Shown: in pieces, positions 1-19,059 of the stretch
How the letters are laid out: each line of letters starts with the position of its first letter
Position numbering within the stretch: position 1 is the first letter of the stretch
Origin: Myxococcales bacterium
GTDB taxonomy: Bacteria; Myxococcota_A; UBA9042; JABWCM01; BTVJ01
Direction: 5' to 3'
Length of the DNA stretch: 19,059 nucleotides
Assembly (NCBI GenBank): GCA_045863395.1
Contig: BTVJ01000123.1
Coordinates: 1-19,059, forward strand
The notes under the pieces: generated by a model
What the model was told of the DNA's origin: nothing
The model's database searches: none
The model's input: the letters and a program-made list of their open reading frames with translations, nothing else
Position numbers and translations under genes: made by a program

Positions 1-110
1 CGCCTGAGTCTCCTGTTCCTCCGCCTGAGTCTCCGGCGCCTCCGCCTGAGTCTCCGGCGCCTCCGCCTGAGTCTCCGGCGCCTCCGCCTGAGTCTCCCCC
101 GCCAGAGTCT
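1..110. repeat. 21-bp coding tandem repeat CCTCCGCCTGAGTCTCCGGCG (GDSGGGA on the minus strand)
   Basis: Three perfect copies at 18-80 with partial or degenerate copies on both sides. Unit length is a multiple of 3 and in frame with the CDS starting at 271. Confidence 0.9.
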
Positions 111-271
111 CCCCCGCCCCCCTTTGAGTCTCGCGGACCGAGCGCAGAGTCGCCGCCCCCTCCCGACTGGGCGTCGTGCGCCGCGGCTCCTTCCTCCGTC
201 GCTGCGTCGCAGGCGCAGACTGCGAGGGCGCCCGCCACGGTCACCGACCACATGAACCGACTTATCCGCAT
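2..271 (-). CDS. Partial putative lipoprotein (3' end runs off the window) with a Gly/Ser/Asp-rich repeat linker
   Basis: Not in ORF track; translated by hand. GGAGG RBS precedes ATG at 271. Reads MRISRFMWSVTVAGALAVCACDAATEEG...GDSGGGAGDSGGGA... with no stop to the window edge. Hydrophobic signal ends in a lipobox-like LAVCAC. Confidence 0.75.
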   Translation of the reverse strand, partial: MRISRFMWSVTVAGALAVCACDAATEEGAAAHDAQSGGGGDSALGPRDSKGGGGDSGGGDSGGGAGDSGGGAGDSGGGAGDSGGGTGDSG

Positions 272-406
272 CGAGGCCTCCCGTCGTATCCTGGTGTTGA
301 ATGGCACACACAGGCCATAGCAGGCACCACGGGAGCAGTCCAGGAGGGGAGCGTCGAAGTGAGAAGCGGGTGAGACGGGGCTGCCGGGGTCGCGGGCGCC
401 GCCCGG

Positions 407-781
407 TCAGTGTGCGTGTGTCGCGCGCTGCGAGGCGATCTGCGCCCGCACTTCGTCCATGTCGAGCTTGCGGGCCTGCTCCACGAGGCTGTCGAGGCCC
501 TGCTCGGGGACCACTCCAGGCTGAGAGTAGAGCAGCACGCCCTCGCGGAAGATCATCAGGGTCGGGATGGAGCTGATCCTCAGCGCCCCGGCCAGCTCCG
601 GCTGAGCCTCCGTGTCCACCTTGGCGAACACCGCGTCGGGGTGCTTTGCGGCGACGCGCTCGAAGATCGGCCCGAACGTGCGGCACGGCCCGCACCAGGC
701 CGCCCAGAAGTCGATGAGCACGAGGTCGTTGGTCTCGATGGTCTGCTGGAAGGTCTCCGCCGTGAGCGCGGTCGTGGCCAT
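407..781 (-). CDS. trxA: Thioredoxin (124 aa)
   Basis: IDFWAAWCGPC active site, FAKVDTE and cis-Pro loop SSIPTLMIF. GAGAGGAG RBS before ATG at 781; this is the true start inside track ORF 407..1426. Confidence 0.95.
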   Translation of the reverse strand: MATTALTAETFQQTIETNDLVLIDFWAAWCGPCRTFGPIFERVAAKHPDAVFAKVDTEAQPELAGALRISSIPTLMIFREGVLLYSQPGVVPEQGLDSLVEQARKLDMDEVRAQIASQRATHAH

Positions 782-876
782 GTCGTGTCTCCTCTCGATG
801 TGCCGGCGCGGCCGGCGTTGTGTGACGCGTCGTTGGAGCCAGAGACCCGCAGAGAGGGTGCACGGGCCCCGGGTGG

Positions 877-1545
877 TCAGCGCCCCTCGAAGTGCGCGAT
901 CACCCGGCGCCCCACCACGTGCAGCTCGGTGAAGTTCCACGCGGCCCCGATCACGCCCCCCACCACGGGGACGGACCGGGTCGCCACGGCGCGCCCCGAG
1001 ACCCGCTTGCCGAACACCTTGAAGATCGCGCGGCGCGCGACCCGCATGGACCGCTGCTGGAGCACGCGCTGCGCCGCGTGCCGCGTGACCTCCCGGGCGC
1101 CCTGCAGCCCCACCTCGCGCAGGAGCTGCGAGGCCAGGGACGCCCCGATCACGGGCGCCAGCAGGCGCCACTTCGCCCCCGGGTCGTCGAAGAAGCGGGG
1201 GTTGAAGATCAGCGCGACCTTGGCCGCCGCGACGAGCTCCATGTGCAGCACGGCGGCCACGTCGACGGCCGCCGCGGGCACCGCCACGGGGAGGCTCCCG
1301 GGGAACCCGGTCGCCGCCCCGACGACGGCGGCGCGCCACGCCTGGCGGGAGAACACGCGCTCCGCCAGCTCCCGCGGGGAGTCGCCCGCGTGGTGGCGCC
1401 GCAGGGCCTCCACGGCGGCCCCGCACCCGGGGACGTCCACGTCGAGGGCCGCCAGGATGGCGTCCTCCAGGGCGTCGATCACCGCGGTCCCCGCCTGGTT
1501 GGCTCTCTCGATGGCTTGCATGGGGTCACCTGCCTCGCCCTGCAT
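877..1545 (-). CDS. EcsC-family / DUF697-like protein
   Basis: Gly/Ala-rich hydrophobic motifs AAVVGAATGFPG..VPAAAVDVAAV and C-terminal RSVPVVGGVIGAAWN resemble EcsC-family proteins. Start could be 1545 or 1521. Confidence 0.6.
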   Translation of the reverse strand: MQGEAGDPMQAIERANQAGTAVIDALEDAILAALDVDVPGCGAAVEALRRHHAGDSPRELAERVFSRQAWRAAVVGAATGFPGSLPVAVPAAAVDVAAVLHMELVAAAKVALIFNPRFFDDPGAKWRLLAPVIGASLASQLLREVGLQGAREVTRHAAQRVLQQRSMRVARRAIFKVFGKRVSGRAVATRSVPVVGGVIGAAWNFTELHVVGRRVIAHFEGR

Positions 1546-1593
1546 CGTGCGCCCCTCGGCGCTCGACCGCAAGTCGATGCGCGCCCGCGGGGG

Positions 1594-3048
1594 TCACGCC
1601 CTGCGGCGCTGGAGCCACGCGCCGAGGGCCACCAGGGCGAGCACGAGCGGAGACCCAGACGGGAGGGCTGCCGAACAGCCTCCGCCCTCGCCCCCCGACG
1701 CCCCCACCTCCTTGCCAGGGCCCCCGCTGTCTCCGCCGGCACCTCCGCCCCCCGCGGTGCCGTCTCCGCCCCCAGCCCCCACGGCCTCGTTGCACACGCT
1801 GCCCTCGCACGGGGCCGCGGCGGGCACCGTCACGCACTCCCCGTCGCACCGGGCCCCCGCGCCGCAGTCCGCGTCCGTCGCGCACGCCCCCTCGAAGCGC
1901 CACACGGTCCCGCCGTCGCCCACCATCACGCCATCCAGCAGGGAGCGCATGGCGCCATCCACCGTCGTGCCGTCGCCGCTCGGCATCTGGCCCCCCATCA
2001 GGTTCACGGTGATCTTCCCGAGGTCGGTCTTCTCCCAGGTCGCGCCCCCGTCCCGGGTCAGGAAGTCGACCGTCTTGTAGATGGGCTGCGGCCCTCCTTG
2101 CCCAGAGGACGCATCCGTCAGGTAGGCGGACCCAGCGAGGTGCCCCGTCTTCGCGTCGCTCCAGTACATGGCGGTCACGAACGAGGCCTTGATCGGCACC
2201 TGGATGAACATGTCCAGCGTGCCCACCTCGGCGGGCAGGGCCGCGTCCACGAAGGTCGCGCCGCCGTCGGTGGTGCGCAGGAGCCGCGCCGTGCCGTGGT
2301 CGCCCGAGGGCTTCTCCGACGCCGCCAGGAAGCCCGTTCGGCCATCGGCCAGGAAGAACAGCGGGCACAGCACGTGGCCCGTGGTCGTCGCGCCAGCCGT
2401 CCAGGTCTGCCCGCCATCCGCGGTGTACAGCACGACGCCGCCCGTGACGGTGGTCGTCTCCTTGCCGTCCCAGTCCGTCTCGCTGGTCTGGCCCTGGCCC
2501 GCGGCCCAGCCACGCAGCCCGTCCAGCCAGAACATGCACCCGAGGTCCGCCTCGGTCCCCGTCGCGACGGGCTCCCAGGAGCCGCCGCCGTCCATGCTCA
2601 TCGCCGCGAAGCCTCCCTTGCCCACGGCGTAGCCTCGCTTGGCGTCGAAGAAGTGGAGCCGCCGGGCCGCGCCCCCGAGCTCGGCGGCGGTCCAGGTCTT
2701 GCCCCGGTCGCCGGTCCGGTGGGCCTTGCCGTCCAGGACCGCAAACCCCGTGCTGGCATCGAGGAACGCGACCGCGTCGACCGCCCCGATGCTGCCGAGC
2801 CCCGCCGGGGCGCCCCCGAGAGATCCGGTGATGACGTCGAGGGTCTTGCCCCCGTCGGCGCTCGCGAACACCGCCGCCTTGGGGAGAGGCAGCGGCGACG
2901 CCGGGTCCACCGTGAAACCCCCGGCGAAGAGATCTCCGCCCGCCAGGCTCACCGAGAGCAGCGTGTCGCCGCTCGACGTGTGGATCTTCTTCCAGGAGGC
3001 GTCCGCCTGGCTCGCGACCAACAACCCTGCCACCACCAACGCTCGCAT
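1594..3048 (-). CDS. Secreted BNR/Asp-box (YCF48-like) beta-propeller protein with a Cys-rich module and a MYXO-CTERM-type C-terminal anchor (484 aa)
   Basis: GGAGG RBS and signal peptide MRALVVAGLLVASQADA. Six Asp-boxes (SADGGKT, TGDRGKTW, SMDGGGSW, TADGGQTW, TTDGGATF, TRDGGATW). CATDADCGAGARCDGEC module, Gly linker, then GGGCSAA-hydrophobic helix-RRRA terminus. Confidence 0.85.
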   Translation of the reverse strand: MRALVVAGLLVASQADASWKKIHTSSGDTLLSVSLAGGDLFAGGFTVDPASPLPLPKAAVFASADGGKTLDVITGSLGGAPAGLGSIGAVDAVAFLDASTGFAVLDGKAHRTGDRGKTWTAAELGGAARRLHFFDAKRGYAVGKGGFAAMSMDGGGSWEPVATGTEADLGCMFWLDGLRGWAAGQGQTSETDWDGKETTTVTGGVVLYTADGGQTWTAGATTTGHVLCPLFFLADGRTGFLAASEKPSGDHGTARLLRTTDGGATFVDAALPAEVGTLDMFIQVPIKASFVTAMYWSDAKTGHLAGSAYLTDASSGQGGPQPIYKTVDFLTRDGGATWEKTDLGKITVNLMGGQMPSGDGTTVDGAMRSLLDGVMVGDGGTVWRFEGACATDADCGAGARCDGECVTVPAAAPCEGSVCNEAVGAGGGDGTAGGGGAGGDSGGPGKEVGASGGEGGGCSAALPSGSPLVLALVALGAWLQRRRA

Positions 3049-3154
3049 GTGTCCTCCGCTCATCCGCCGATGGTATCTCGCCGCTCTCCACGGGCGCCAG
3101 ATCCTTTCCGTGGCCCGCGCGTCCAGAGCCGGGCACACGCACGGAGGTGAGGTC

Positions 3155-4771
3155 ATGAAGCTGTTTGCGTTCCTTGGGGCCATCGTGATGGGCGCGGCCC
3201 TCGGCTGCCTGAGCCCCGATCCGGCGACCGGGGAGACCCCCAACCCGGCGACCGGGGAGACCCCAAACCCGACGAGCGGGGAGACCGCCAACCCGACGAG
3301 CGGGGAGTCCCCAAGCACGGCGATCGGGGAGACCTCGGCGGCGCCCCAGGTCACCACGCCCCCCGCCGCTGCGCCCGCCGCGCCCGGCGACCCCCTCGCG
3401 GACATCTTCGGTATGGCGCCGGTACCCGCCGCACCCACGCTCCTCGTGGCCGCTGGCGATCCCCTCCCTCCCGCCGGCGGCTCCGAGGTCGGGCCGCCGC
3501 AGCCCGACGGCGGCGCCGTGGAGCTGAACGTGGGGCTCTCCCACCCGAAGGTCCTCGCCGGCGGCCACCGCACGGTGTGGCTGGCGGTCGGCATCCAGGC
3601 CGCCGAGGCCCGCCCCGCAAACCGCCTCCCCTTGAACCTGGCGCTGGTCATCGACCGGTCGGGCTCCATGGAGGGTCGCAAGCTCAAGGACGCCAAGGCA
3701 GCCGCGCACGGCCTCGTCGCGCTCCTGTCCAGCGACGACCGGGCCGCGCTCGTGACCTACTCAAGCTCCACCCGCGCCGATGTGCCCTCGACCCTGATGG
3801 GCGACGGCGCTCGGGCCGCGTTCACCCGCGCCATCGACCGCATGAGGGCATCCGGCAGCACCTTCTTGACCGGCGGCCTCTTCGAGGGGCGCGCTCAGGT
3901 GCAGCAGCACGCGCGGCGCAGCCAGGTCAACCGGGTCCTGCTGCTCTCCGACGGCATCGCCAACGTCGGAATCACGGACCCGACCTGGCTCGCCGGCCAG
4001 GCCCGCCAGATGTCCCAGCAGGGCGTGCTGATCAGCACCATCGGGGTGGGCAACGACTACAACGAGGACCTGATGACCGCCGTCGCCGACTACGGCGGCG
4101 GGGCCTACTACTACGTGCGAGACTCCCGCGACCTGGCCTCCGTGGTGGAGCGCGAGGCGCAGCTCATGGCCTCGACGGTCGCACAGCGCATGACCCTCGA
4201 GCTGGAGCTGCCGACCGGCGTCGTGCTGGAGAACCTGTTCGGCTACACCTACACCCGCGAGGGGAACACGGTCGCCGTCCCCCTGGCCGAGGCCTTCGCG
4301 GGTCAGGGCCGCAACGTGCTCGTGCAGCTCCGCGTCCCTGCCGTGGAGCAGGGGCCGCTGCCCGTGGCGCGGGTGCGCCTGAGCTACGAGGACGTGACCG
4401 GCCAGGAGCCGCTGCGCTTCGACCGCACCGTGACGCTCGACGCGGAGGCCACCCGGGACGCGTGGGCCGTCGAGGACGCCGTCGACCGCGACGTGCTCGC
4501 GCGGCTCCAGCAGATCCGCATCGCCCAAGCGCTCAACGAGGCGGCCACCGCCGTGAGCCGCGGCGACCGCGCCGGGGCGCGCCGCGTCTTGTCGACGGCC
4601 AGGGAGGAGGCGGTGAAGGCGAACCAGGCCTACGGCAGCTCCAAGCTGGACAACTCCATCGGCGTGCTGGGAGGGGTGATGGACGAGATGGAGCGGGCGG
4701 GCGGCGCCCCCGCAGCCGCACCGGCGCTCATGAAACGCGCCAAGGCCTCCAGCTACGAGATGACGAAGTAG
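3155..4771 (+). CDS. von Willebrand factor A (vWA, YfbK/Ca-activated chloride channel homolog-like) lipoprotein (538 aa)
   Basis: GGAGGTGAGG RBS, lipobox MKLFAFLGAIVMGAALGC, PLNLALVIDRSGSM MIDAS motif, RVLLLSDGIANVG, STIGVGNDYNEDLM and GGAYYY. Confidence 0.9.
   Translation: MKLFAFLGAIVMGAALGCLSPDPATGETPNPATGETPNPTSGETANPTSGESPSTAIGETSAAPQVTTPPAAAPAAPGDPLADIFGMAPVPAAPTLLVAAGDPLPPAGGSEVGPPQPDGGAVELNVGLSHPKVLAGGHRTVWLAVGIQAAEARPANRLPLNLALVIDRSGSMEGRKLKDAKAAAHGLVALLSSDDRAALVTYSSSTRADVPSTLMGDGARAAFTRAIDRMRASGSTFLTGGLFEGRAQVQQHARRSQVNRVLLLSDGIANVGITDPTWLAGQARQMSQQGVLISTIGVGNDYNEDLMTAVADYGGGAYYYVRDSRDLASVVEREAQLMASTVAQRMTLELELPTGVVLENLFGYTYTREGNTVAVPLAEAFAGQGRNVLVQLRVPAVEQGPLPVARVRLSYEDVTGQEPLRFDRTVTLDAEATRDAWAVEDAVDRDVLARLQQIRIAQALNEAATAVSRGDRAGARRVLSTAREEAVKANQAYGSSKLDNSIGVLGGVMDEMERAGGAPAAAPALMKRAKASSYEMTK
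3215..3334 (+). repeat. 24-bp coding tandem repeat, five degenerate copies (PDPATGET/PNPATGET/PNPTSGET/ANPTSGES/PSTAIGET)
   Basis: Directly visible right after the lipobox of the vWA protein; forms a Pro/Thr-rich tether. Confidence 0.85.
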
Positions 4772-4783
4772 ACGTACCAACGG

Positions 4784-5185
4784 TCAGGGGCAGTAGCTCT
4801 TGTCCTTCTTGGCGATGGCCTTGCAGGCGTTGTCCGACCCGCAGTAGCTCGCGTCCCCGCTCGCGACCCCCTTGCAGAAGTCCGTGCGGCAGTAGCTCTT
4901 GTCCTTCTTCACGATGCCCTTGCAATCGTCGGTGCTGCAGTAGCTGGCGTCCCCCTTCGCCCACGCCTTGCAGTCGTCGGTGCGGCAGTAGCTCGAGTCC
5001 TTCTTGACGACGCCCTTGCAGTCGTCGGTGCTGCAGTAGCTGGCGTCGCCGCTGGCGATGGCCTTGCAGTCGCTGCTGCCCCACGACGTGATGTCCGCGA
5101 GACCCGCGGCGGGGAGGAGGGCGACCAGCGCCAGGCCGAGCAGGGCCACGGCGGCCGGTCCGAGTGCACGCTTCGTGTTCTTCAT
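4784..5185 (-). CDS. Small secreted cysteine-rich repeat protein (133 aa; six 16-aa C-x10-C repeats)
   Basis: GAGGA RBS before ATG at 5185. Signal peptide ends in AGLA. Mature part is DCKAIASGDASYCSTD-like repeats with 12 Cys. Codon third positions are strongly GC. Confidence 0.85.
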   Translation of the reverse strand: MKNTKRALGPAAVALLGLALVALLPAAGLADITSWGSSDCKAIASGDASYCSTDDCKGVVKKDSSYCRTDDCKAWAKGDASYCSTDDCKGIVKKDKSYCRTDFCKGVASGDASYCGSDNACKAIAKKDKSYCP

Positions 5186-5370
5186 GGGTTCCTCGTGTGT
5201 TGGCGCCCGGTTGATGTCGCTGCCCGGCGCCGGGGGCGGCGAGCGATGGTAGCACGGGACGCCGGCCCTCCGCACCGATTCACGGAGAGCGGTAGCACCC
5301 AAACCGGGGGCTGTGGGCTCATGCAGCTCACGGCGGGCGCCTCGCCCCCGAAATCACCCCAGGAGGACCC

Positions 5371-5682
5371 ATGCCATCCATCCCCGACAGCCCCACGCTG
5401 TCAGTCTCTGCGGCCGCCCTCGGGGCGCTGCGGTCCCACGTGAGCGCGCCCGGGAGCGCCGTCCGCGTCACCCTCGACGGCTATGGGTGAGGCGGGCCCC
5501 GCATGGGGCTGGCTCTGGATGAGCCACGAGACGGAGACGAGTCCACCGTTCACGATGGCATCACCTTCGTGGTCGGCCGCGACCTGACGCGAGCGCTCCC
5601 GCGGGGCGTCGTGCTCAACGTCGTGTACTACGAGCGCTGGCGGGAGTTCAGCGTGCGGGTCGCCGGGTATGCCTCCTGCTGA
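5371..5682 (+). CDS. HesB/IscA-like selenoprotein (103 aa, Sec at codon 40, TGA 5488-5490)
   Basis: Not in ORF track. AGGAGG RBS then ATG at 5371. Hand translation: MPSIPDSPTLSVSAAALGALRSHVSAPGSAVRVTLDGYG-U-GGPRMGLALDEPRDGDESTVHDGITFVVGRDLTRALPRGVVLNVVYYERWREFSVRVAGYASC. The motif RV..G.GUGGP..GLALDEP...D......GITFVV is the hallmark of HesB-like selenoproteins. Confidence 0.88.
5491..5526 (+). promoter_or_regulatory. Putative bacterial SECIS element
   Basis: Hairpin TGGCTC-TGGAT-GAGCCA (5510-5526) whose loop starts 25 nt after the TGA and has G at loop position 2, fitting the general bacterial SECIS model. A second small hairpin GCCCC-GCAT-GGGGC lies just upstream. Confidence 0.65.
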
Positions 5683-5695
5683 CGATTGACGGGCA

Positions 5696-5728
5696 CGCCT
5701 CCGGGAGGGACAGTGGGGCCCGGAGGTG
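5696..5728 (+). promoter_or_regulatory. GC-rich hairpin sequestering the GGAGG RBS of the nucleotidyltransferase gene
   Basis: CGCCTCCGGG (5696-5705) pairs with CCCGGAGGTG (5719-5728): 10 bp with one G-U pair and a 13-nt loop. GGAGG at 5722-5726 is 7 nt before ATG 5734. Confidence 0.5.
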
Positions 5729-5733
5729 CGGCG

Positions 5734-6330
5734 ATGGGCGCGGTCGGGATCGTGCTGGCGGCGGGGGCGGGGCGGCGCATGGGAGAGCCCAAGGCGCTGC
5801 TCGTCACCGCCGGCGAGAGCTGGCTCGCCCGCGCCATCCGCGTGTGCTTCGAGGGCGGGTGCTCGGCGGTCCACGTCGTCGCCCGCGCCGACGTCCCTGC
5901 AATCGGCGCCATCGTCGCCGGCGCCGGCGCGCGCCTGGTGCTCAACCCCGACCCCGAGCGGGGCATGTTCTCCAGCGTCCAGGAGGGAATCCGCGCCGCA
6001 CTGGGCGCGGCCCCCCACAGCCACGCCGTCATCTTCCCTGTGGACCACCCGAGCGTCCAGCCGCTGACCGTCGCGGCGCTGATCGCCGCATCCAGCCAGA
6101 GCGCCGTCGCTCTCCCCACCTGCAGGGGCGCAGACGGCCACCCGATCGCCCTGGATCCGCGCACCGCCCGAACGCTGCTGCTGCTCCCCACGTCCATGAC
6201 GCTCCGCGAGGCCCTGGCCGTCACCGGCGCCGCCTTCGTGCGGGTGCCCGTGGACGACCCGGGGGTCCTCCACAACGTCAACCTGCCCGCCCCGGGCTTC
6301 GGGGCACCGGTGACCGAGGAGTCCACATGA
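5734..6330 (+). CDS. Nucleotidyltransferase family protein (NTP_transf_3; MocA/YgfJ-like molybdenum cofactor cytidylyltransferase homolog)
   Basis: IVLAAGAGRRMGEPKALL, NPDPERGMFSSV, FPVDHP, GHPI and DDPGVLHNVN motifs. GGAGG RBS. Confidence 0.85.
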   Translation: MGAVGIVLAAGAGRRMGEPKALLVTAGESWLARAIRVCFEGGCSAVHVVARADVPAIGAIVAGAGARLVLNPDPERGMFSSVQEGIRAALGAAPHSHAVIFPVDHPSVQPLTVAALIAASSQSAVALPTCRGADGHPIALDPRTARTLLLLPTSMTLREALAVTGAAFVRVPVDDPGVLHNVNLPAPGFGAPVTEEST

Positions 6331-6929
6331 AGACCCTGCTCCTTCCGCTGTGTGTCGTCGCGCTCATCGGGTGCAAGCGGAGCGATCCCGCGCAGGCGCC
6401 CCCGGCTGCGCCCCCCGCTGCGCCGCCGGAGGCACGCGCCGTCGGCGACGCTCAGCCGCAGGTGGCCAAGGCCCGCGAGGTGTTCGCCAAGGTGGGTGCG
6501 GCCCTGTCGGAGCGCCTGGGCGCGGCTGTTCAAGAGGGAGGCGCGCCCAAGGCCATCGAGGTGTGCAAGGCGGAGGCGGCGACGTTGACGGCTCGCGCCA
6601 TCGAGGGGACGGGAATCCGAGCGGGTAGGACCAGCCACAAGCTGCGCAGCCAGGCCAACGCGCCCGCCGAGTGGATGAGGCCCATCGTGGCCGAGGGCGC
6701 CGGCAGGAAGGCCGGCGACGTCGGTGTGCGCACCGTGGACCTGGGTGACCGGGTCGGGGTGATGGCGCCCATCCCCACGGGCGGGCTGTGCGTCGCCTGC
6801 CACGGCGACGACCAGGCGGTGAGCGTCGAGACGCGCGCGGCCCTGGCCGCGGCCTACCCGGCGGACGAGGCGCGGGGCTTCGGTGAGGGCGATCTGCGCG
6901 GCTGGTTCTGGGCGGAGGTGCCCAAGTAG
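6327..6929 (+). CDS. DUF3365 (Tll0287-like) c-type heme lipoprotein (200 aa)
   Basis: ATGA overlap with the upstream stop. Lipobox VALIGC, AIEVC, RTSHKLRSQANAP, heme motif CVACH and YPADEARGFGEGDLRGWF. Confidence 0.88.
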   Translation: MKTLLLPLCVVALIGCKRSDPAQAPPAAPPAAPPEARAVGDAQPQVAKAREVFAKVGAALSERLGAAVQEGGAPKAIEVCKAEAATLTARAIEGTGIRAGRTSHKLRSQANAPAEWMRPIVAEGAGRKAGDVGVRTVDLGDRVGVMAPIPTGGLCVACHGDDQAVSVETRAALAAAYPADEARGFGEGDLRGWFWAEVPK

Positions 6930-6946
6930 CGCCTCCGCCCCCGGTG

Positions 6947-7807
6947 TCAGCGGCCGAGGAAGTCGAGCGGCATCTTGAGGTAGCGGCGGCCGTTGGCCTC
7001 TGGCGCGGGGAGCCGCCCCGCGTCCACGTTGACCTGGAGGCTCTCGAGGATGAGCCGCGGCGGCGCGAGGGTGGCGTCCCTCCCCTTGCGGAACGCGACG
7101 AAGTCGGAGCGCGAGGTGCCCGCGCGGAGCTGCACGTTGCGCTCCATGGACTCCCCGATGGTCGTCTCGTACCGAAGCTCCCGACCTCCCGGCAGGTAGT
7201 CGTGGCCCGTGAGGACCCGGGTGGCGGGGTCGAGGGTGTAGAGGCGCTTCGTGATCGAGTCATAGAGCTGCTCGGCGCTCCCCTTCGGGAAGTCGCAGCG
7301 CCCGGTGCCGTAGTCGGGCATGAACAGCGCGTCCCCCGTGAACACGGCGTCCCCGATCTTGTAGCTGCTGCACGCGGGGGTGTGGCCCGGGGTGGCGATC
7401 ACCTCGACCTTCAGGGAGCCTGCGTCCAGCACCTCGTGGTCGCTCACGAGCTTCGTCCACTGGCTCCCGTCGGTGCGCAAGGCGGGAACGTCGTAGACGC
7501 CCTTGAAGAACTCCTGGACCTCGGTGATGCGCGCGCCGATGGCCGTCGGGGCGCCGTAGCGCTCCCGGAGGACCTCCATTCCTGTGAGGTGGTCGGCGTG
7601 GGCGTGCGTGTCGAGGACCCAGCGCACCGTGAGGGACCGCTCGGCCACCAGGGCGGCGACCTCGTCCACGGACCGCGTGGAGAGGCCCCAGGTGGCGGGG
7701 TCGAAGTCGAGCACCGGGTCGATGACCACGGCGTCCCCGGTGGCCGGGTCCCATGCAACGTAGGTGAGCGTCCAGGTGGATTTGTCGAAGAATGCCTTGA
7801 TCTCCAT
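6947..7807 (-). CDS. MBL-fold metallo-hydrolase, persulfide dioxygenase (PDO/ETHE1/Blh-like)
   Basis: VIDPVLDFD, LDTHAHADH metal motif, TPGHTPAC, FTGDALFMPDYGTGRCDFP, GHDY and RDATLAPPRLILESLQVN. GAGGAGG RBS. Confidence 0.92.
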   Translation of the reverse strand: MEIKAFFDKSTWTLTYVAWDPATGDAVVIDPVLDFDPATWGLSTRSVDEVAALVAERSLTVRWVLDTHAHADHLTGMEVLRERYGAPTAIGARITEVQEFFKGVYDVPALRTDGSQWTKLVSDHEVLDAGSLKVEVIATPGHTPACSSYKIGDAVFTGDALFMPDYGTGRCDFPKGSAEQLYDSITKRLYTLDPATRVLTGHDYLPGGRELRYETTIGESMERNVQLRAGTSRSDFVAFRKGRDATLAPPRLILESLQVNVDAGRLPAPEANGRRYLKMPLDFLGR

Positions 7808-7851
7808 GGGTCCTCCTCATTCGGGCGCGGGGCTGCGCGGCGGAGCCTCTC

Positions 7852-7867
7852 TGCGAAGGGCGTGCCA
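7852..7867 (-). promoter_or_regulatory. Sigma-54 (-24/-12) promoter for the persulfide dioxygenase gene
   Basis: Minus strand reads TGGCACG-CCCT-TCGCA versus consensus TGGCACG-N4-TTGCW, about 45 bp upstream of the ATG. Confidence 0.75.
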
Positions 7868-7941
7868 CGAGGGAGATGTGCGTGATCCCAGGCAGTTGTG
7901 GATGTCGTCGCGCGGAGGGGAGGGCGAGCGCCGGTGCATGA

Positions 7942-7980
7942 ATCATGATGTTGCGTCAGTTGGCGCGTCATTTTGCGACA
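7942..7980. promoter_or_regulatory. Putative enhancer-binding-protein upstream activator sites (inside the 3' end of the first sulP)
   Basis: CGCGTCA-TTT-TGCGACA at 7964-7980 plus a weaker site 22 bp away (7942-7958, right half TGCGTCA). Confidence 0.55.
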
Positions 7981-9607
7981 ACCGGCTGACGGCGACGATG
8001 CACTCCTGAAGGGCCGCGCCCGGCAGCTCGGACTGGCCCGTGGCGCTCAGGGGCCTGCCCTCCCGCTCCAGGGCGTGGAGCAGCCGGTCCGGGGCGCCGC
8101 AGATGTGCAGCCGGGCCCCGCGGCGCCCGAGCGCGGCGTCGATCTCCTCCAGGGCGTCCACGGCGCGCCACCGGATGGCGTGGGCGTGGGTGAGATCGAT
8201 GATCACGTCTCGGGCCGAGGCGGGTACGAGGGCGAACACGGCGTCGGGGAGCGTGGACGCCGCGGCGAAGTGCAGGTTGCCGCTCACCTCGATGGCGACC
8301 GCGGCCGGCGTGCCTTCCAAGTGTGCGAGGGAGCCCCTCTGGACGGCCCAGGCGCGCAGGTGGGGGTGGGAGTCCTCCGCCAGGTGGAGGACAAGGGCGA
8401 GGCCCGTGCCCGCGAACACCGCCAGCTCCAGGGGCAGGACCAGCGTCGCCAGCAGTGACGTGAGCATCACCGCCCGGGGGGAGCGCCACACGTTGACGGC
8501 GCGGGACATGCGGCGGACGTCCACCATCGACCAGGCCGTCGCGAACAGGACGCCAGCCAGGCTCGCCTGCGGGATGGACTCGACGACGGGGCCCGCGAAC
8601 AAGAGCAGCGGCACGACGAAGACGGCCCCGCTGGCGGCCGCGAGGCGCGTGCGGGCGCCGCCGAGGCGCAGCAGGGCGGAGCGGGTCAGCGACGCGGACG
8701 CCGGGAAGGCGCTCGAGAACGCGCCGGCCAGGTTGGCCCAGCCCTGTGCCTGGATCTCGCGGCGCAGATCCGGGCGCCCGCCCGCCGCGGAGGCGGACAC
8801 GGTCAGCTCCAGGGTCCCGAGCAGCGCGATGGCCGCCGCAGGGGCCAGCAGGCGCGCCAGGGTGGACGGGTGGACGTCGGGGAGGGCGCCCGGGGGCCAG
8901 CCGGAGGGCAGAGGGGCGCGGTCCGAGACGAGGGGCAGGCCCGAGGAGGCGTCCGCGCCCGTCAGCATCACCACGATGGTCGTGGCGATCACGGTCAGCA
9001 AGGCCACGGGCACGTGGGGGTTGCGCTTCATGCCCATGAGGACCACCGCCGCCGTCCCGAACGCGACCAGCGAGGCAGGCCATGACGGGGCCGAGCGGCT
9101 GAGCGCCTCGCCCAGGCCGACCACCTCCTCCACCAAGCCGGCACCGCGGATGGGGTCCAGACCCAGGGCCTCGTCGAGCTGCATGGTGGCGATCAGGATC
9201 CCCGCGCCGGCCGTGAAGCCCACCAGGAAGGACTCGGGGAGGAACCGGATGAGGGACGCCGCGCCCACGCGCGCGGCGAGCAGGCGGATCAGGCCCGCGA
9301 GCAGGGTCAGCGTGGCGAGGGTCGGGAGGCCCTCGGCCCCCAGGAAGCCATCGGGGCCCAGGTACGGGGCGAGGGCCGCGAGGATCAGCAGGCCCGTGGT
9401 GTTGGTGGGGCCGGTCACCACCTGGGCGCTCCGGCCCGCCAGCGCGGCGATCACCCCGGGGACGGCGGCGGTGGTCAGGCCGTAGGCCGGGGGCAGCCCG
9501 CTCATCATCGCGTACGCGAGGCACTGGGGGAGCCCGACGAGCGCCACGGTCACGCCGGCCGTCAGGTCGGCGCCCAGGGTCTGAAGGCGCGGGCGTCGCG
9601 GATCCAT
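7943..9607 (-). CDS. SulP/SLC26 family inorganic anion transporter with C-terminal STAS domain (divergent copy)
   Basis: DLTAGVTVALVGLPQCLAYAMMSGLPPAYGL, GPTN, GFTAGAG, ASASLTRS and STAS-like GNLHFAAA..VIIDL; many hydrophobic helices. Confidence 0.9.
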   Translation of the reverse strand: MDPRRPRLQTLGADLTAGVTVALVGLPQCLAYAMMSGLPPAYGLTTAAVPGVIAALAGRSAQVVTGPTNTTGLLILAALAPYLGPDGFLGAEGLPTLATLTLLAGLIRLLAARVGAASLIRFLPESFLVGFTAGAGILIATMQLDEALGLDPIRGAGLVEEVVGLGEALSRSAPSWPASLVAFGTAAVVLMGMKRNPHVPVALLTVIATTIVVMLTGADASSGLPLVSDRAPLPSGWPPGALPDVHPSTLARLLAPAAAIALLGTLELTVSASAAGGRPDLRREIQAQGWANLAGAFSSAFPASASLTRSALLRLGGARTRLAAASGAVFVVPLLLFAGPVVESIPQASLAGVLFATAWSMVDVRRMSRAVNVWRSPRAVMLTSLLATLVLPLELAVFAGTGLALVLHLAEDSHPHLRAWAVQRGSLAHLEGTPAAVAIEVSGNLHFAAASTLPDAVFALVPASARDVIIDLTHAHAIRWRAVDALEEIDAALGRRGARLHICGAPDRLLHALEREGRPLSATGQSELPGAALQECIVAVSRLSQNDAPTDATS

Positions 9608-9671
9608 GGGGGGCTAGGATGGCCTCGATGGGCGCGGGCTGCAAGCGCTGCGAGCCCCGGTGCCTGGTTGT

Positions 9672-9710
9672 TGCCTCATGGCGCGTCATGTGTCGCGTCA
9701 GGTTGAAACA
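9672..9710. promoter_or_regulatory. Putative enhancer-binding-protein upstream activator sites
   Basis: TGCCTCA-TGG-CGCGTCA (9672-9688) and CGCGTCA-GGT-TGAAACA (9694-9710), 22 bp apart. Confidence 0.55.
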
Positions 9711-9771
9711 CTGGCGGAGGGCTGCGACACACAGGAGAGCACAGGGCCCCACCCTTCGGGCCCTTCATCGC

Positions 9772-9787
9772 TGGCACGCTTCTTGGA
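9772..9787 (+). promoter_or_regulatory. Sigma-54 (-24/-12) promoter for the YeeE/YedE pair
   Basis: TGGCACG-CTTC-TTGGA: perfect -24 element, with TTGG in place of TTGC at -12. Confidence 0.65.
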
Positions 9788-9873
9788 AAAGGTCCGAGCC
9801 GCGCCGCCTCAGGCGCCTGGGGCCCCCGCGCTTCTCGGGGCCTCCAACCACCCACCAACGGAGTCGGGAGTCC

Positions 9874-10299
9874 ATGCCTGAGTTCACACTTGCGCCCGCG
9901 CTGATTGGCGGGCTTCTCATCGGGGTCTCCGTGTCCTTGATGCTCCTGTTCACTGGGCGCATCGCCGGCATCAGCGGCATCCTGGGCGGGATGCTCGGCG
10001 CCGGCTCCGGCGACGCGGCCTGGCGCCTCCAGTTCCTGGGCGGGCTGGTGGCGGGCGGCGTGCTGCTTGCGGTCCTCCACCCGGGGGCGCTCGCCAGCGC
10101 CGCAGCCACGCCCGTGACCTTCGTGGCCCTGGCTGGGCTGCTCGTCGGCTTCGGCACGCGCCTCGGCAGCGGGTGCACCAGCGGCCACGGCATCTGCGGC
10201 GTGAGCCGCCTGTCACCGCGCTCGCTCGTCGCGACGCTCACCTTCACCATCTCCGGTGGGGCGGCCGTGCTGCTGCTCCGCCTGCTCGGAGGGATCTAA
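9874..10299 (+). CDS. YeeE/YedE family sulfur transporter subunit (PmpA-like, 141 aa)
   Basis: ALIGGLLIG, GRIAGISGI and GLLVGFGTRLGSGCTSGHGICGVSRLSPRSLVAT motifs; four hydrophobic segments. Confidence 0.92.
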   Translation: MPEFTLAPALIGGLLIGVSVSLMLLFTGRIAGISGILGGMLGAGSGDAAWRLQFLGGLVAGGVLLAVLHPGALASAAATPVTFVALAGLLVGFGTRLGSGCTSGHGICGVSRLSPRSLVATLTFTISGGAAVLLLRLLGGI

Positions 10300-10301
10300 G
10301 C

Positions 10302-10754
10302 ATGGCTGGTTTCATCGTGTTCGCGTCAGGGCTCCTGTTCGCGGTCGGGCTCGGAGTCTCGGGGATGACGGACCCTGCCAAGGTGAGGGGCTTCATGGAC
10401 GTCACCGGTGCCTGGGACCCGACGCTGGGCTGGGTCATGGTGGGCGCCGTCGCCACCCACATGCTGGCGTACCGTCTCATCGTGCGGCGCAAGGCGCCCA
10501 TCCTCGCGCCGAAGTTCGGGATCCCCACGCGGCGGGACCTGGATGCCCGGCTCCTCGTGGGCGCCGCGCTGTTCGGCGCCGGGTGGGGGCTCGGCGGCTT
10601 CTGCCCCGGTCCCGGGCTCGTGTCCCTGGCGTCGGGTGGCGCCGCTCCCCTCGTGTTCGTGGCGTCCATGCTCGGCGGGATGTGGGCGTTCAACGTCTGG
10701 GAGGGCCTGGTGGCGGCCCGCGCGGCGCGGAGGTTGGCTACACAGGCGGCCTGA
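10302..10754 (+). CDS. YeeE/YedE family (DUF6691, PmpB-like) membrane protein (150 aa)
   Basis: GLLFAVGLGVSGMTDPAKVRGFMDVTGAWDPTL and LFGAGWGLGGFCPGP motifs; starts 2 nt after the partner's stop. Confidence 0.92.
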   Translation: MAGFIVFASGLLFAVGLGVSGMTDPAKVRGFMDVTGAWDPTLGWVMVGAVATHMLAYRLIVRRKAPILAPKFGIPTRRDLDARLLVGAALFGAGWGLGGFCPGPGLVSLASGGAAPLVFVASMLGGMWAFNVWEGLVAARAARRLATQAA

Positions 10755-10757
10755 CCG

Positions 10758-11735
10758 TCAGGGTCCGGGCTGGATGATCCCGTACTCCCGCATCTTCCGC
10801 CAGAGCGTCGAGCGGCTCATGCCGAGCCGCACCGCGGCGTCCCCCTTCCGCCCCCTCGCCTCCTCCAGGGCTCCCAGGATCCGCTCCCGCTCCAGATCCC
10901 GCGCGGTCCGCCGCCCCGGCTCCGGCTGGGACGGCGCGCCCAGCTCCGGCGTCAGCTCGTCGAGGCGCAGGAGGGGGCCGTCGCCGACCGCGAAGGCGTG
11001 CTCGATGTTGTTGCGCAGCTCGCGCACGTTGCCTGGCCACTCGTAGGAGCACAGCGCCTCCGTGGCGGCCTCCTCGATGGCCTCGACGCGGCGGATGCCG
11101 AGCCCGTTGAACTCGTCGATGAAGTGCCACGCCAGCGCCTGCACGTCGCCGTCCCGCTCCGCGAGGCGCGGGATGAACAGGGTCACCACCCGGACACGGT
11201 ACATCAGGTCTTCCCGGAACCGGCCCGCCTCCACCTCTGCCCGCAGCGCCTTGTTGGTGGCCGACAGGAGCCGCACGTCCGCCGTGAGGCTCTCCGTACC
11301 GCCCAGCGGCACGAAGGTGCGCTCCTGGAGCACCCGCAGGAGCCGCGCCTGGAGGTCGAGGGGCAGCTCCGCCACCTCGTCCAGGAACACGGTGCCGCCG
11401 CTGGCGAGCGCGAACAGGCCGCGCCGGTCGCGCACGGCCCCCGTGAAGGCGCCGCGCACGTGCCCGAACAGCTCGGAGGCGAGCAGCTCGCCGGTCAGCA
11501 TGGCGCAGTTGATGGCGCGGAAGGGGCCCGCGGCGCGGCGGCTCAGGTCGTGGAGCGCCCGGGCGACCAGCTCCTTGCCCGTCCCCGACTCGCCCCGGAT
11601 GAGCACGGTCGCCTCCGTCCGAGCGACGCGCTCCATGCGCTCGAAGAACGCAAACATCTGAGGGGCAACCGTCACCATGCCGTGGAAGGTGGTCGGCGCA
11701 GTGTCGGGGCGGCCGTGGCAGGTGCGTCGCGTCAT
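10758..11735 (-). CDS. Sigma-54-dependent transcriptional activator (AAA+ plus Fis-type HTH) with no N-terminal sensory domain
   Basis: Walker A GESGTGKE, ELFGHVRGAFTGA, Walker B FLDEV, RFREDLMYR, WPGNVRELRN and HTH AAVRLGMSRSTLWRKM. Start taken as ATG 11735 (uncertain, no clear RBS). Confidence 0.92.
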   Translation of the reverse strand: MTRRTCHGRPDTAPTTFHGMVTVAPQMFAFFERMERVARTEATVLIRGESGTGKELVARALHDLSRRAAGPFRAINCAMLTGELLASELFGHVRGAFTGAVRDRRGLFALASGGTVFLDEVAELPLDLQARLLRVLQERTFVPLGGTESLTADVRLLSATNKALRAEVEAGRFREDLMYRVRVVTLFIPRLAERDGDVQALAWHFIDEFNGLGIRRVEAIEEAATEALCSYEWPGNVRELRNNIEHAFAVGDGPLLRLDELTPELGAPSQPEPGRRTARDLERERILGALEEARGRKGDAAVRLGMSRSTLWRKMREYGIIQPGP

Positions 11736-11766
11736 GGTGAGCCAGTCTATGCGACATTGTGAAACA
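11728..11766. promoter_or_regulatory. Putative enhancer-binding-protein upstream activator sites overlapping the activator's own start codon
   Basis: CGCGTCA-TGG-TGAGCCA (11728-11744) and TGCGACA-TTG-TGAAACA (11750-11766), 22 bp apart. Confidence 0.6.
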
Positions 11767-11849
11767 TTCTCAAGGCGACCGGAGCGGTGCGCGCGGTGGG
11801 AGGGCCGGCCGCGTGTCGCCATGGCTGCGTCGGCGCCGGTGGGCCACGC

Positions 11850-11865
11850 TGGCCCGGATTTCGCA
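11850..11865 (+). promoter_or_regulatory. Sigma-54 (-24/-12) promoter for the second sulP
   Basis: TGGCCCG-GATT-TCGCA, GG-N10-GC spacing, 35 bp upstream of ATG 11901. Confidence 0.7.
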
Positions 11866-11900
11866 ACCACCCTGGGGGACTCGCGCGACCCGGAGGTCTC

Positions 11901-13640
11901 ATGCACGCACTGTCACGACGGCTCCCATCACTGGACTGGCTCCTGCGCTACCGCCGAGAGGATCTGGGCGGTGACCTGTCGGCGGGGCTGACCACCGCCG
12001 TGATGCTGGTGCCGCAGGGCATGGCCTACGCCATGCTGGCCGGTCTGCCGCCCATCACGGGGCTCTACGCGTCCATCCTGCCGCTGGTCGCCTACGCGCT
12101 GCTGGGGTCGTCGCGCCAGCTCGCCGTAGGCCCCGTCGCCATGGTGTCGCTGCTCGTGGCGTCCGGGGTGGGCGCCCTGGCCCAGGGGGGCACCGAGGCC
12201 TATCTCGGCCATGCGGTGCTCCTGGCGCTGATGGTCGGTGTCATGCAGGTGGTCATGGGTGCGGGTCGCCTCGGCTTCCTCGTGAACTTCCTGTCCCACC
12301 CGGTCGTGAGCGGCTTCACGTCAGCCGCGGCGCTGATCATCGGGGCGAGCCAGCTCAAGCACCTGCTCGGGGTGGACCTGCCGCAGGGGGTGGAGGGGGC
12401 GGCCGTGGCGATCTCCCGGATCGCCGAGTGGCACTGGCCCACCGTCGCCGTCGGTGGGGCAGCCGTCGTGGCGCTCGTCGCGCTCCAGCGGCTCGCGCCT
12501 CGCTTCCCGCGCGCCCTGGCGGTGGTCGTCGCCGGAACGCTCGCCGTGTGGGCGCTGGGGCTCGAGGGTGCCGGCGTGCGGGTCGTGGGGAGCGTCCCCG
12601 CGGGACTGCCGACCCTCGGAGTGCCTGCGTGGAGCTGGGACGCGCTCCGGTCGCTCCTGCCCATCGCCCTGACCATCTCGCTGGTCGGCTTCATGGAGTC
12701 CGTCTCCGTCGCCAAGGCCTTCGCCCAGCGCAGTGGTCGCGACATCGACCCGAACCAGGAGCTGATCGCGCTCGGCGCCGCCAACGTGGCCGCCAGCGTG
12801 AGCGGGGCCCTGCCGGTGACCGGCGGCTTCTCCCGCACGGCGGTCAACGCCCAGGCCGGGGCGCGCACGGGCCTCGCGAGCCTCGTGACGGCCGCCATGG
12901 TCGCGCTGACGCTGCTCTTCCTGACGCCCCTGTTCCGGGGGCTGCCCACGGCGGTGCTCGCCGCGATCATCCTGACGGCGGTGGCGGGGCTCGTGGATCT
13001 GAAAGAGGTCCGGCACCTGTGGTGGGTCAAGCGCGGCGATCTGGCGCTGCTCGGGACCACCTTCGTCGCCACGCTGGGCCTGGGCATCGAGGAGGGCATC
13101 CTCGTGGGCGTGGGCGCCTCGCTGCTCTGGTTCGTGGTGCGGTCGACGCGCCCGCACTTCGCGGTGCTCGGGCGGCTGCCCGGCTCGACCGTCTGGAGGA
13201 ACGTCCGCAACTTCCCCGAGGCAAGGACGGTCCCCGGGGTGCTGGTCGTGCGCATCGACGCGCAGCTCTACTTCGGCAATGTGTCGTTCCTGAAGGAGAC
13301 CCTGCGGAGCCTGGAGACGGAGCCGCTGCGGGCCGTCGTGCTCGACGCCAGCGCCGTGAACCAGCTCGACTCGTCCGCCGAGGTGGCGCTGCAGGAGCTG
13401 CTCGATGCGTGGACGGCGCGGGGTGTGCGCCTGGCCATCGCCAGCGCGAAGGGGCCCGTCCGGGAGGTGATGGAGCGGTCGGGGCTCGCTGAGCGGCTCG
13501 GTGCGGGCATGTGCCTGACCACCGAGGAGGCGGTCGCCGCCGTCCTCGGTGCTCCGCCGCTGAGCGCGCAGCTCGTGGACGCGCCGCAGCCGGGAGCCAC
13601 GCCGGTGGCGCCGCTGGCGACGGTCCCCGCCGTGGCATGA
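11901..13640 (+). CDS. sulP: SulP family sulfate/anion permease with STAS domain (579 aa)
   Basis: [69 protein letters not shown] and [27 protein letters not shown]. Confidence 0.95.
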
Positions 13641-13761
13641 CACCGGAGCTGTCTCCAGAGACCCCCGCCAGTGCACCGACCCGTTGGAGTTGCCGCTCCC
13701 CGCTCCTTGCTGTAGGTTCGACGAGCGCCCCGCCGGGCGCCGACCCCACAGGAGCTCTCAC

Positions 13762-15050
<1,289 letters not shown>

Positions 15051-15054
<4 letters not shown>

Positions 15055-15848
15055 CGACCGTGGTCGGCTTCAAGGTGCCCGACGGCATCGTGCTCGGGGC
15101 GGACAGCGCCATGACCGTGACCCGGTCGCTGGGAGACAACCGCTACGACAGCTACCACAAGCTGTCGGTGGTCTGTGGGCTCCCCATCGCCACCGCCATG
15201 TGGGGGCGCGGCGCGCTGGGGCAGCGGACGGTGCCGAGCATGGTCGAGGAGTTCAGCGTGGAGAAGGCCATGCTGCGCGCCACGGCGTGGTCCGTCGAGG
15301 ACGTGGCGACGGAGCTGTGGCGCTTCATGCAGGCGCAGCACGACGCGCTCCCGCCACAAGGGGGGCAGGTGCCGCTCCACATGCTGGTCGCCGGATACTC
15401 GAAGGGGAGCTACCACGGGCAGATGTGGCGCTTCGACATCCCCGGCGACGGCCCCAAGCTGCACGCCGACTTGAAGGCGCTGACCATCTCGTGGTTCGGG
15501 GTGACGGAGGGAATCCAGACCCTGTGGTGGGGGCACTCTCCGGCGCTCCACGAGGTGCTCACGGAGGAGGGGGTGCCCCACGACGTGGTCCACCGGGTGG
15601 TGCGCAAGCTCCGGGAGCGCTCGGCGCTGGGCCCCGAGCGCCTCGACTTCGGCATGCCGCTCCAGAACGCGGTGGATCTGGTCGCCTTCCTCATCGGCGT
15701 GGAGGTCACCCGGGAGCGGTACACGCCGGGGCTCGCCCGGTCTGCGCCGCCCCTCGACCTGCTGGTGGTGCGCCCCGGCGGGGTCCACTGGGTGCAGCGC
15801 AAGGAGCTGATCGCGCCGCCGACGCTGCTCGGCGGGTTCCTGCCGTGA
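15051..15848 (+). CDS. Proteasome beta-subunit-like Ntn-hydrolase (265 aa)
   Basis: GTGA overlap with the upstream stop. N-terminus [19 protein letters not shown] gives Thr1 and Asp17 after Met removal, with Lys36 in HKL. C-terminal [14 protein letters not shown]...PLDLLVV..WVQRK. Confidence 0.7.
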
Positions 15849-17023: not shown

Positions 17024-17066
17024 GGAGAGCGCTTGACGCGCTGCCGTGGGGGGCCGCAGTTTCGCG

Positions 17067-17096
17067 TTGAAGCACCGCGCTGGACCGTGGTAGCGT
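17067..17096 (+). promoter_or_regulatory. Possible sigma-70 promoter for the EGF-repeat lipoprotein
   Basis: TTGAAG-18 nt-TAGCGT with an extended -10 TG. Confidence 0.3.
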
Positions 17097-17171
17097 GCTG
17101 GCACCAAGGACCCAAACAGCGCTGACCCGACCGCTCCCGCACGGCGGCAGGCCCAGATGAGGAGACGAAGC

Positions 17172-18962: not shown

Positions 18963-19059
18963 CGTAGAGGGGGGGGGGGAAATAAAAAAAAAAAAAATAA
19001 AAAGGCCCGCCAGGCGATGTGATATTAGTATAAATGACCCCCCACAGGTTACACCCGTA
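18963..19059. other. Low-complexity, AT-rich terminal sequence, probably a contig-end or read artefact
   Basis: Long G run followed by A runs, with an abrupt drop in GC content relative to the rest of the window. Confidence 0.6.

What the first reader, a model, noticed from the sequence alone, without database searches (positions are those of the whole stretch)
5371..5682. Hidden selenoprotein gene (HesB/IscA-like) missed by ORF calling
Seen in the sequence: a strong RBS and ATG at 5371, an in-frame TGA at codon 40 in the context DGYG-TGA-GGPRMGLALDEP, an open frame continuing to a terminal Cys103, and a hairpin (TGGCTC-TGGAT-GAGCCA) with a loop G about 25 nt downstream. Established: HesB-like proteins are a known bacterial selenoprotein family, with Sec at the position of the first IscA Cys in a GUGGP..GLALDEP motif. 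Inference: this organism has the Sec machinery and uses this protein as a sulfur/selenium carrier or redox protein. It keeps only one C-terminal Cys rather than the IscA CxC.
Basis: partly seen in the sequence, partly recalled or inferred. Interest (0 to 1): 0.85.

Follow-up and report, generated by a model that had tools for sequence, protein, structure and literature searches.

The report
HesB-like selenoprotein gene split by callers
This small gene has a stop-like TGA codon in its middle that is very likely read as selenocysteine, giving a protein that likely carries iron-sulfur clusters; it is an ordinary member of a long-known kind that gene callers cut in two.

Summary
Observation confirmed. 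The frame 5371-5682 (+) gives a 103-residue IscA/HesB-fold protein with one in-frame TGA (codon 40, GYG-U-GGP) and a hairpin 25 nt downstream. The genome holds selA, selB, selD (itself with TGA) and tRNA-Sec. All 12 matches in 11 of 60 relatives have TGA at this column. The hairpin motif stands in 31 of 31 TGA forms and 0 of 14 Cys forms, with a compensatory C-G/U-A swap (23/8). The closing TGA is a true stop, so there is no fusion with the in-frame MocA-like gene. Against: alone the hairpin is weak (7% of synonymous recodings do as well), one genome has the TGA form without selA, and the protein scores below the curated cut-offs of NF038090 and TIGR01911. Function is inferred, not shown: most likely an accessory Fe-S/iron carrier using U40 and C103 (about 45%), or a Se-S redox protein (30%). 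The sulfur/selenium-carrier reading gets no support from gene neighbours. HesB-like selenoproteins are long known, and this scan found the same kind before on other DNA. Ordinary; low interest.

The parts
5361..5366 (+). Shine-Dalgarno-like AGGAGG, 4 nt before the start codon
   Evidence: sequence; a gene caller used the same ATG (39-aa fragment P0004)
5371..5682 (+). coding sequence of the 103-residue IscA/HesB-fold protein with predicted Sec40
5488..5490 (+). in-frame TGA, codon 40, predicted selenocysteine (UxGP motif)
   Evidence: TGA at this column in 12 of 12 matches in relatives; TGC/TGT in 14 Cys forms; no other letter in 4 DNA runs
5510..5526 (+). upper stem-loop of the predicted bacterial SECIS (6 bp, loop UGGAU)
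   Evidence: 31 of 31 TGA forms against 0 of 14 Cys forms; C-G in 23 and U-A in 8 at one pair
5677..5679 (+). Cys103, last residue; aligns with the first Cys of the CxC motif of A-type carriers
   Evidence: Cys is the last residue in 27 of 31 TGA forms
5680..5682 (+). true stop codon (TGA)
   Evidence: TAG or TAA in 6 of 31 TGA forms, best hairpin only -2.4 kcal/mol, non-coding score behind it
5734..6330 (+). context only: MocA/YgfJ-like NTP transferase gene in the same frame, with its own GGAGG (5722-5726) and ATG
   Evidence: PF12804 E 2.7e-29; TIGR03310 80.7 bits, under its cut-off; not a conserved neighbour

Best explanation
The frame 5371-5682 is one gene whose internal TGA is very likely read as selenocysteine, and its product is predicted to have the IscA fold and likely works as an accessory iron-sulfur (or iron) carrier. 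Steps: (1) shown in sequence: TGA at codon 40, a conserved hairpin 25 nt behind it, and selA, selB, selC, selD in the genome. (2) Inferred from the established bacterial pathway: SelB binds the hairpin loop and delivers Sec-tRNA; translation ends at the second TGA, which has no such hairpin. (3) Predicted: A-type-carrier fold with U40 at a strand-turn-strand tip where IscA has Cys35, and C103 on a mobile tail where IscA has Cys99. (4) Inferred, untested: two chains would each give U40 and C103, four ligands in all, to hold a labile [2Fe-2S] cluster or iron and pass it to client proteins, beside the genome's ordinary three-Cys carrier. Odds: steps 1-2 about 0.96, step 3 about 0.95, step 4 about 0.45.
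For: selA 567 bits, selB 316 bits, selD 387 bits, all over cut-off; tRNA-Sec 78.4 bits against 47; SelD has its own TGA in GUAAK; these contigs match the genome's composition (tetranucleotide r 0.992-0.998 for C20, C21, C40, C123). 11 of 60 relatives match, all 12 matches with TGA at this column; those 11 all have selA and none of the 13 without selA matched. Hairpin motif 31 of 31 against 0 of 14; the Ala/Val codon in the stem ends in T in 31 of 31 TGA forms and 1 of 14 Cys forms, while GCT is 5.3% of Ala codons in this genome. One pair swaps C-G/U-A with no mismatch in 31 rows. Profile hits in the PDB are only ErpA/IscA/SufA (5 of 5). AlphaFold model pLDDT 85.7; best Foldseek match is IscA with [2Fe-2S], 1x0g, E 1.3e-4, TM 0.63. 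U40 and C103 align with two of the three carrier Cys (Cys35 and Cys99/101 named as ligands in PMC11327457, passages). 15 of 31 TGA forms keep 2-3 Cys in the tail. The genome has a canonical carrier and SufB/D-like genes.
Against: No experiment shows Sec insertion or metal binding. The third carrier Cys is missing, and the IscA-fold protein DsrR is reported to bind neither iron nor Fe-S (title of a reference in PMC11406059; DsrR is Foldseek rank 8). Neighbours are not conserved and no Fe-S assembly gene is among them. The M. maripaludis HesB-like selenoprotein has no clear function, and its mutant still fixed nitrogen (PMC11097638, passages). G086 (94% complete) has the TGA form with hairpin but no selA and no tRNA-Sec over cut-off (150 of 833 RNA candidates scored). 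47 of 60 relatives have selA, so 11 of 11 is weak alone, and kin are not independent. 11 of the 14 Cys controls come from one pattern scan and are mostly Desulfomicrobium. Among 58 library proteins fetched, 19 have Trp (probably TGA read under another code; not tested) and one has Arg at the column. The model gave no coordinates, so the U40-C103 distance was not measured.
Confidence: 0.5

Rival explanations
1. Same selenoprotein, but a redox protein: U40 and the terminal C103 would form a reversible Se-S bond on an IscA scaffold, keeping client cysteines (perhaps of Fe-S proteins) reduced, with no cluster bound.
For: Only two thiol/selenol groups; 16 of 31 TGA forms have a single Cys in the last 14 residues; the last three residues are low-confidence in the model (pLDDT 59), as a mobile tail would be; most prokaryotic selenoproteins are thought to be redox proteins (PMC13188914, section 7 part 1); the genome already has a three-Cys carrier.
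Against: No thioredoxin fold or UxxC/CxxU motif; both residues sit at carrier ligand positions; no conserved reductase neighbour.
Confidence: 0.3
2. Sulfur or selenium carrier (persulfide/perselenide on U40 or C103), linked to the MocA-like gene behind it and the sulfur-transport genes nearby; the first reader's reading.
For: The window holds an MBL-fold sulfur-dioxygenase-like gene, two SulP permeases and a YeeE/YedE plus DUF6691 pair at 6947-13640, and a MocA-like gene directly downstream. A terminal Cys is typical of carriers (recalled).
Against: None of 87 neighbouring frames from 29 homolog loci matched MocA-like, SulP permease, YeeE/YedE or sulfur-dioxygenase families (one weak STAS hit only; flanks only 1.5 kb). 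The sulfur cluster's nearest gene is on the other strand, 1.3 kb away.
Confidence: 0.12
3. Pseudogene or sequencing error: the TGA is a plain stop.
For: TGA ends 2348 of 3318 long frames in this genome; G086 has the TGA form without selA.
Against: Same codon is TGA in 30 homologs, whose proteins are as little as 24-47% identical to this one; sequence behind it is conserved to the last Cys; complete Sec machinery; 4 DNA runs agree.
Confidence: 0.03
4. Double recoding: the closing TGA is also Sec (Cys-Sec pair) and the protein is fused to the in-frame MocA-like domain.
For: The frame stays open into the MocA-like gene.
Against: TAG or TAA at this place in 6 of 31 forms, no hairpin better than -2.4 kcal/mol, non-coding spacer; sequence after the stop is unrelated among 13 loci; the downstream gene has its own GGAGG and ATG.
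Confidence: 0.02

Closest known systems
HesB-like selenoproteins (UxGP motif, one Sec; listed as experimentally verified, domain TIGR01911, in Table 1 of PMC13188914; 11 bacterial members in PMC1794560)
   Same: One Sec in UxGP at the first carrier Cys, about 100 residues, IscA fold, in a Sec-decoding organism, Cys forms exist.
   Different: 27.5 bits against the 66.35 cut-off of TIGR01911; a branch of its own phylum that gene callers split.
NCBIfam NF038090 IscA_HesB_Se (IscA/HesB family protein)
   Same: Best-scoring model (E 4.5e-13); same GxUGGP-L-LALDE core; the model's Cys-form members align directly (L023, L025 over cut-off).
   Different: 49.4 bits against 85; the match covers model positions 2-69 only; no Cys/Gly/Ser-rich tail, one terminal Cys. 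None of the 12 TGA forms reached the cut-off.
A-type Fe-S carriers IscA, SufA, ErpA (TIGR00049)
   Same: Fold (TM about 0.6); first Cys and first Cys of CxC have counterparts.
   Different: Sec for the first Cys, third Cys absent, 18 bits against 58.8; not next to isc or suf genes; the genome has a separate canonical carrier (125.5 bits).
DsrR of Allochromatium vinosum (PDB 2k4z)
   Same: IscA-like fold (Foldseek rank 8, TM 0.62) reported without Fe or Fe-S binding (reference title).
   Different: 16% identity; not reported as a selenoprotein in the passages read; tied to sulfur oxidation.

Membership tests
Bacterial selenoprotein gene | In-frame TGA aligned with Cys or TGA in homologs, conserved sequence on both sides | tested here: met
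Bacterial selenoprotein gene | SECIS: 3-9 nt loop, 4-16 bp stem, G in first two loop places, 16-37 nt from UGA, energy -7.5 or lower (model as given in PMC13188914) | tested here: met
   5-nt loop, 6 bp, G second, 25 nt, -9.2 kcal/mol for the stem-loop (own script, not bSECISearch); compensatory pair
Bacterial selenoprotein gene | selA, selB, selC, selD in the genome | tested here: met
Bacterial selenoprotein gene | Selenium found in the protein | not testable with these tools
   needs 75Se labelling or MS
HesB-like selenoprotein (literature class) | UxGP motif with a single Sec | tested here: met
   U-G-G-P at 40-43; motif from Table 1 of PMC13188914
HesB-like selenoprotein (literature class) | Homology to HesB/IscA | tested here: met
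   NF038090 E 4.5e-13, TIGR01911 E 3.4e-6; PDB profile and fold hits
TIGR01911 HesB_rel_seleno (curated model) | Score of 66.35 bits or more | tested here: not met
   27.5 bits; 0 of 23 proteins reach it
NF038090 IscA_HesB_Se (curated model) | Score of 85 bits or more | tested here: not met
   49.4 bits; 0 of 12 TGA forms, 4 of 11 other proteins reach it
A-type Fe-S carrier (IscA/SufA/ErpA) | Three ligands: first Cys plus C-terminal CxC | tested here: not met
   U40 and C103 only; chain ends at the first Cys of CxC
A-type Fe-S carrier (IscA/SufA/ErpA) | IscA fold | tested here: met
   predicted model
A-type Fe-S carrier (IscA/SufA/ErpA) | Binds and transfers an Fe-S cluster | not testable with these tools
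   needs reconstitution and transfer assays

The most novel reading that the evidence does not exclude
The short-tailed branch, ending in a single Cys as its last residue, has left Fe-S carriage and is a selenenylsulfide (U40-C103) oxidoreductase built on the IscA fold: a redox enzyme class outside the thioredoxin fold, spread through this phylum and hidden because curated models miss it and gene callers split it.
Probability: 0.3. Interest if true: 0.55.

Novelty: new member of a known kind. Interest (0 to 1): 0.2.

Why it matters
Mainly an annotation fix: 12 of the 60 library hits are fragments that begin or end at the TGA region, and the branch scores under both curated models, so its members are lost or halved in databases. 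The function of HesB-like selenoproteins is still unknown (PMC11097638, passages). A minimal two-ligand member is a clean test object for carrier versus redox role, but this gene gives no new handle on that question, as its neighbours are not conserved.

Tried and rejected
Second Sec at codon 104 and fusion with the MocA-like gene: rejected. Second copy on contig C124: a duplicate contig of the window (99.98% over 19,017 bases; differences at window 56, 58, 59), not a paralog. Guilt by neighbours: 87 of 106 picked frames from 29 loci were scanned (19 frames that overlap or abut the HesB-like genes were left out); no shared functional theme. Pfam: no family at E 0.01. Rfam: no match in 5200-5900 at E 1. 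Promoter/terminator scan of 5150-7000: none. Transcription: contigs of 2 of 4 RNA-library runs cover the gene, but contigs cannot show transcription, so nothing is claimed. Tree: quick method only, 76 rows by 112 columns, 39 of 73 inner branches open; the window protein lies nearest other single-Cys TGA forms, in no starred set; not used as evidence. In one search three rows without the search motif were dropped before counting (L061, L062 Cys-type; L063 with TGA in another context), and duplicate loci were skipped. A home-made genome scan for TGA plus hairpin gave 203 candidates, mostly noise. Not obtained: language-model look-alikes, database names of the library hits, and a dimer prediction; so the oligomer state and how sources name the relatives stay open. 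Paper search 'selenoprotein + HesB + Myxococcota' found 0; the lineage of this genome was not determined, so this shows little.

Full report
Observation. AGGAGG (5361-5366) precedes ATG 5371; codon 40 (5488-5490) is TGA in DGYG-U-GGPRMGLALDEP; the frame goes on to Cys103 and a closing TGA at 5680-5682. Codon use marks both halves as coding in this frame only (0.18 and 0.36 bits per codon; other frames -0.01 or lower). Contigs of four DNA runs from four studies cover the TGA without another letter. Public gene callers split the gene: of 60 library hits, one is the 39-residue front piece of this very gene and 11 are 57-60-residue back pieces of relatives.

Sec machinery. The genome (8.77 Mb, 70.9% GC, 97% complete) has selA, selB and selD over their curated cut-offs and a tRNA-Sec. 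SelD has its own in-frame TGA. The contigs with selA, selB and selD match the genome's tetranucleotide profile as well as the window does. Five more frames with TGA at a known Sec motif matched peroxiredoxin, ResA/TlpA-like, formate dehydrogenase alpha, TUGYCR thioredoxin-fold and UshA-like models as partial frames, all under the whole-protein cut-offs, so Sec use here looks broad. The lineage was not determined; a weak MYXO-CTERM-type hit in the window (E 4e-4) hints at a myxobacteria-like organism, and the runs that hold the DNA are mostly from sludge, wastewater, bioreactor and aquatic samples.

Homologs. With the protein as query, 11 of 60 related genomes match, and all 12 matches have TGA at the same column. 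A profile search of 401 genomes of the phylum added more. After dropping duplicates and three rows without the motif, 31 TGA forms (this one included) and 14 Cys forms were compared. All 11 relatives with the gene have selA, and none of the 13 without selA matched, but 47 of 60 have selA, so this is weak alone. Of 21 further genomes with a TGA form, 20 have selA. G086 is the exception, with neither selA nor a tRNA-Sec over cut-off; incompleteness or recent loss are both possible. Among 58 of the 60 library proteins fetched, 19 have Trp at the column, probably TGA read under another code (inferred, not tested), and one has Arg.

SECIS. The hairpin at 5510-5526 meets the published bacterial model (PMC13188914, passages): 6 bp, 5-nt loop with G second, 25 nt from the TGA, -9.2 kcal/mol. 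Alone this is modest: 352 of 5000 synonymous recodings and 169 of 3000 random TGAs do as well, and 60 of 5000 recodings give the same motif. Across homologs it is strong: the motif is in 31 of 31 TGA forms and 0 of 14 Cys forms; the Ala/Val codon in the stem ends in T in all 31 (1 of 14 Cys forms; GCT is 5.3% of Ala codons here); and one pair swaps between C-G (23) and U-A (8) with no mismatch, an Ala-to-Val change tied to a silent Glu change. Caveats: only one pair covaries on both sides, kin are not independent, and most Cys controls are Desulfomicrobium.

The second TGA is a stop. The frame does stay open into a MocA/YgfJ-like gene, which raised the idea of a Cys-Sec pair and a fusion. But 6 of 31 forms end in TAG or TAA, no hairpin better than -2.4 kcal/mol follows, the spacer scores non-coding, and the next gene has its own GGAGG and ATG.

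Protein. The profile finds only ErpA/IscA/SufA in the PDB; U40 aligns with the first carrier Cys and the last residue with the first Cys of CxC. The AlphaFold model (U as C; pLDDT 85.7, pTM 0.73) matches IscA with [2Fe-2S] best (1x0g, E 1.3e-4, TM 0.63), then an integrative model, SufA and HI1723; DsrR is rank 8. Cys is the last residue in 27 of 31 TGA forms; 16 have one Cys in the last 14 residues, 9 two, 6 three. The genome has a separate canonical carrier with three Cys.

Mechanism. Decoding by SelB, the hairpin and Sec-tRNA follows from the established pathway (about 0.96). For function I commit to an accessory Fe-S or iron carrier in which two chains would supply U40 and C103 (about 0.45), because both residues sit at ligand positions (Cys35 and Cys99/101 of IscA; PMC11327457, passages) and half the branch keeps extra tail Cys. 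That two ligands per chain can hold a cluster in a carrier dimer is recalled, not from a call. A Se-S redox role is the main rival (0.3). The sulfur/selenium-carrier reading (0.12) rests on the window's sulfur genes, but no such neighbour recurs in 29 homolog loci. The oligomer state was not modelled.

Known or new. HesB-like selenoproteins with UxGP are listed as experimentally verified (PMC13188914, passages and section 7 part 1), were counted in 11 bacteria in 2006 (PMC1794560, passages) and in worm symbionts (PMC1976440, passages); the function of the archaeal one is unclear (PMC11097638, passages). PMC2682760, PMC7058544 and PMC11406059 were seen as passages only; no supplements were read, and they may list members of this branch. 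The protein fits the literature class by motif, homology and fold, but is not a member of TIGR01911 or NF038090 by cut-off (27.5 of 66.35 and 49.4 of 85 bits; no TGA form of the 12 passes), nor a canonical three-Cys carrier. Earlier notes of this scan report the same kind on other DNA (19 findings in at least 17 genomes hold the search words). Verdict: real, new member of a known kind, interest 0.2.

Noticed in passing
G000 contig C124 versus window 43-19059: C124 is a reverse-complement duplicate of the window (99.98%, three differences near the end): a redundant contig, so counts from this assembly may be doubled.
   Followed up: yes
window 6947-13640: Sulfur-handling cluster: MBL-fold sulfur-dioxygenase-like gene, two SulP/STAS permeases, YeeE/YedE plus DUF6691 pair and a sigma-54 activator.
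   Followed up: partly
window 4784-5185 (-): Divergent small protein with an N-terminal hydrophobic stretch and Cys-rich repeats (YCxTDDCK-like); no credible family match.
   Followed up: partly
window 17157-18962 (+): 601-residue protein with a run of teneurin/tenascin-type EGF repeats in a bacterium (Pfam E 5e-46).
   Followed up: no
L050, L056, L060 (G101, G076, G071): Tandem pairs of one TGA form and one Cys form of the HesB-like gene about 0.5 kb apart; only the TGA copy has the hairpin.
   Followed up: partly
L058 (G086:C1:384555-384854): TGA form with intact hairpin in a 94% complete, 3-contig genome where selA and tRNA-Sec were not found; a second copy without a stop lies 4 kb away.
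   Followed up: partly
L064-L068 (G000 C2, C71, C121, C161, C58): Further candidate selenoprotein genes: peroxiredoxin (TxxU), two thioredoxin-fold proteins (UxxC), formate dehydrogenase alpha, UshA-like (CxU).
   Followed up: partly
library proteins P0008-P0061: 19 of 58 fetched hits have Trp at the Sec column, probably TGA translated under a TGA=Trp code; P0005 has Arg there.
   Followed up: no
window 1594-3060 (-): Beta-propeller-like (BNR repeat) protein with a weak MYXO-CTERM-type C-terminal anchor.
   Followed up: no
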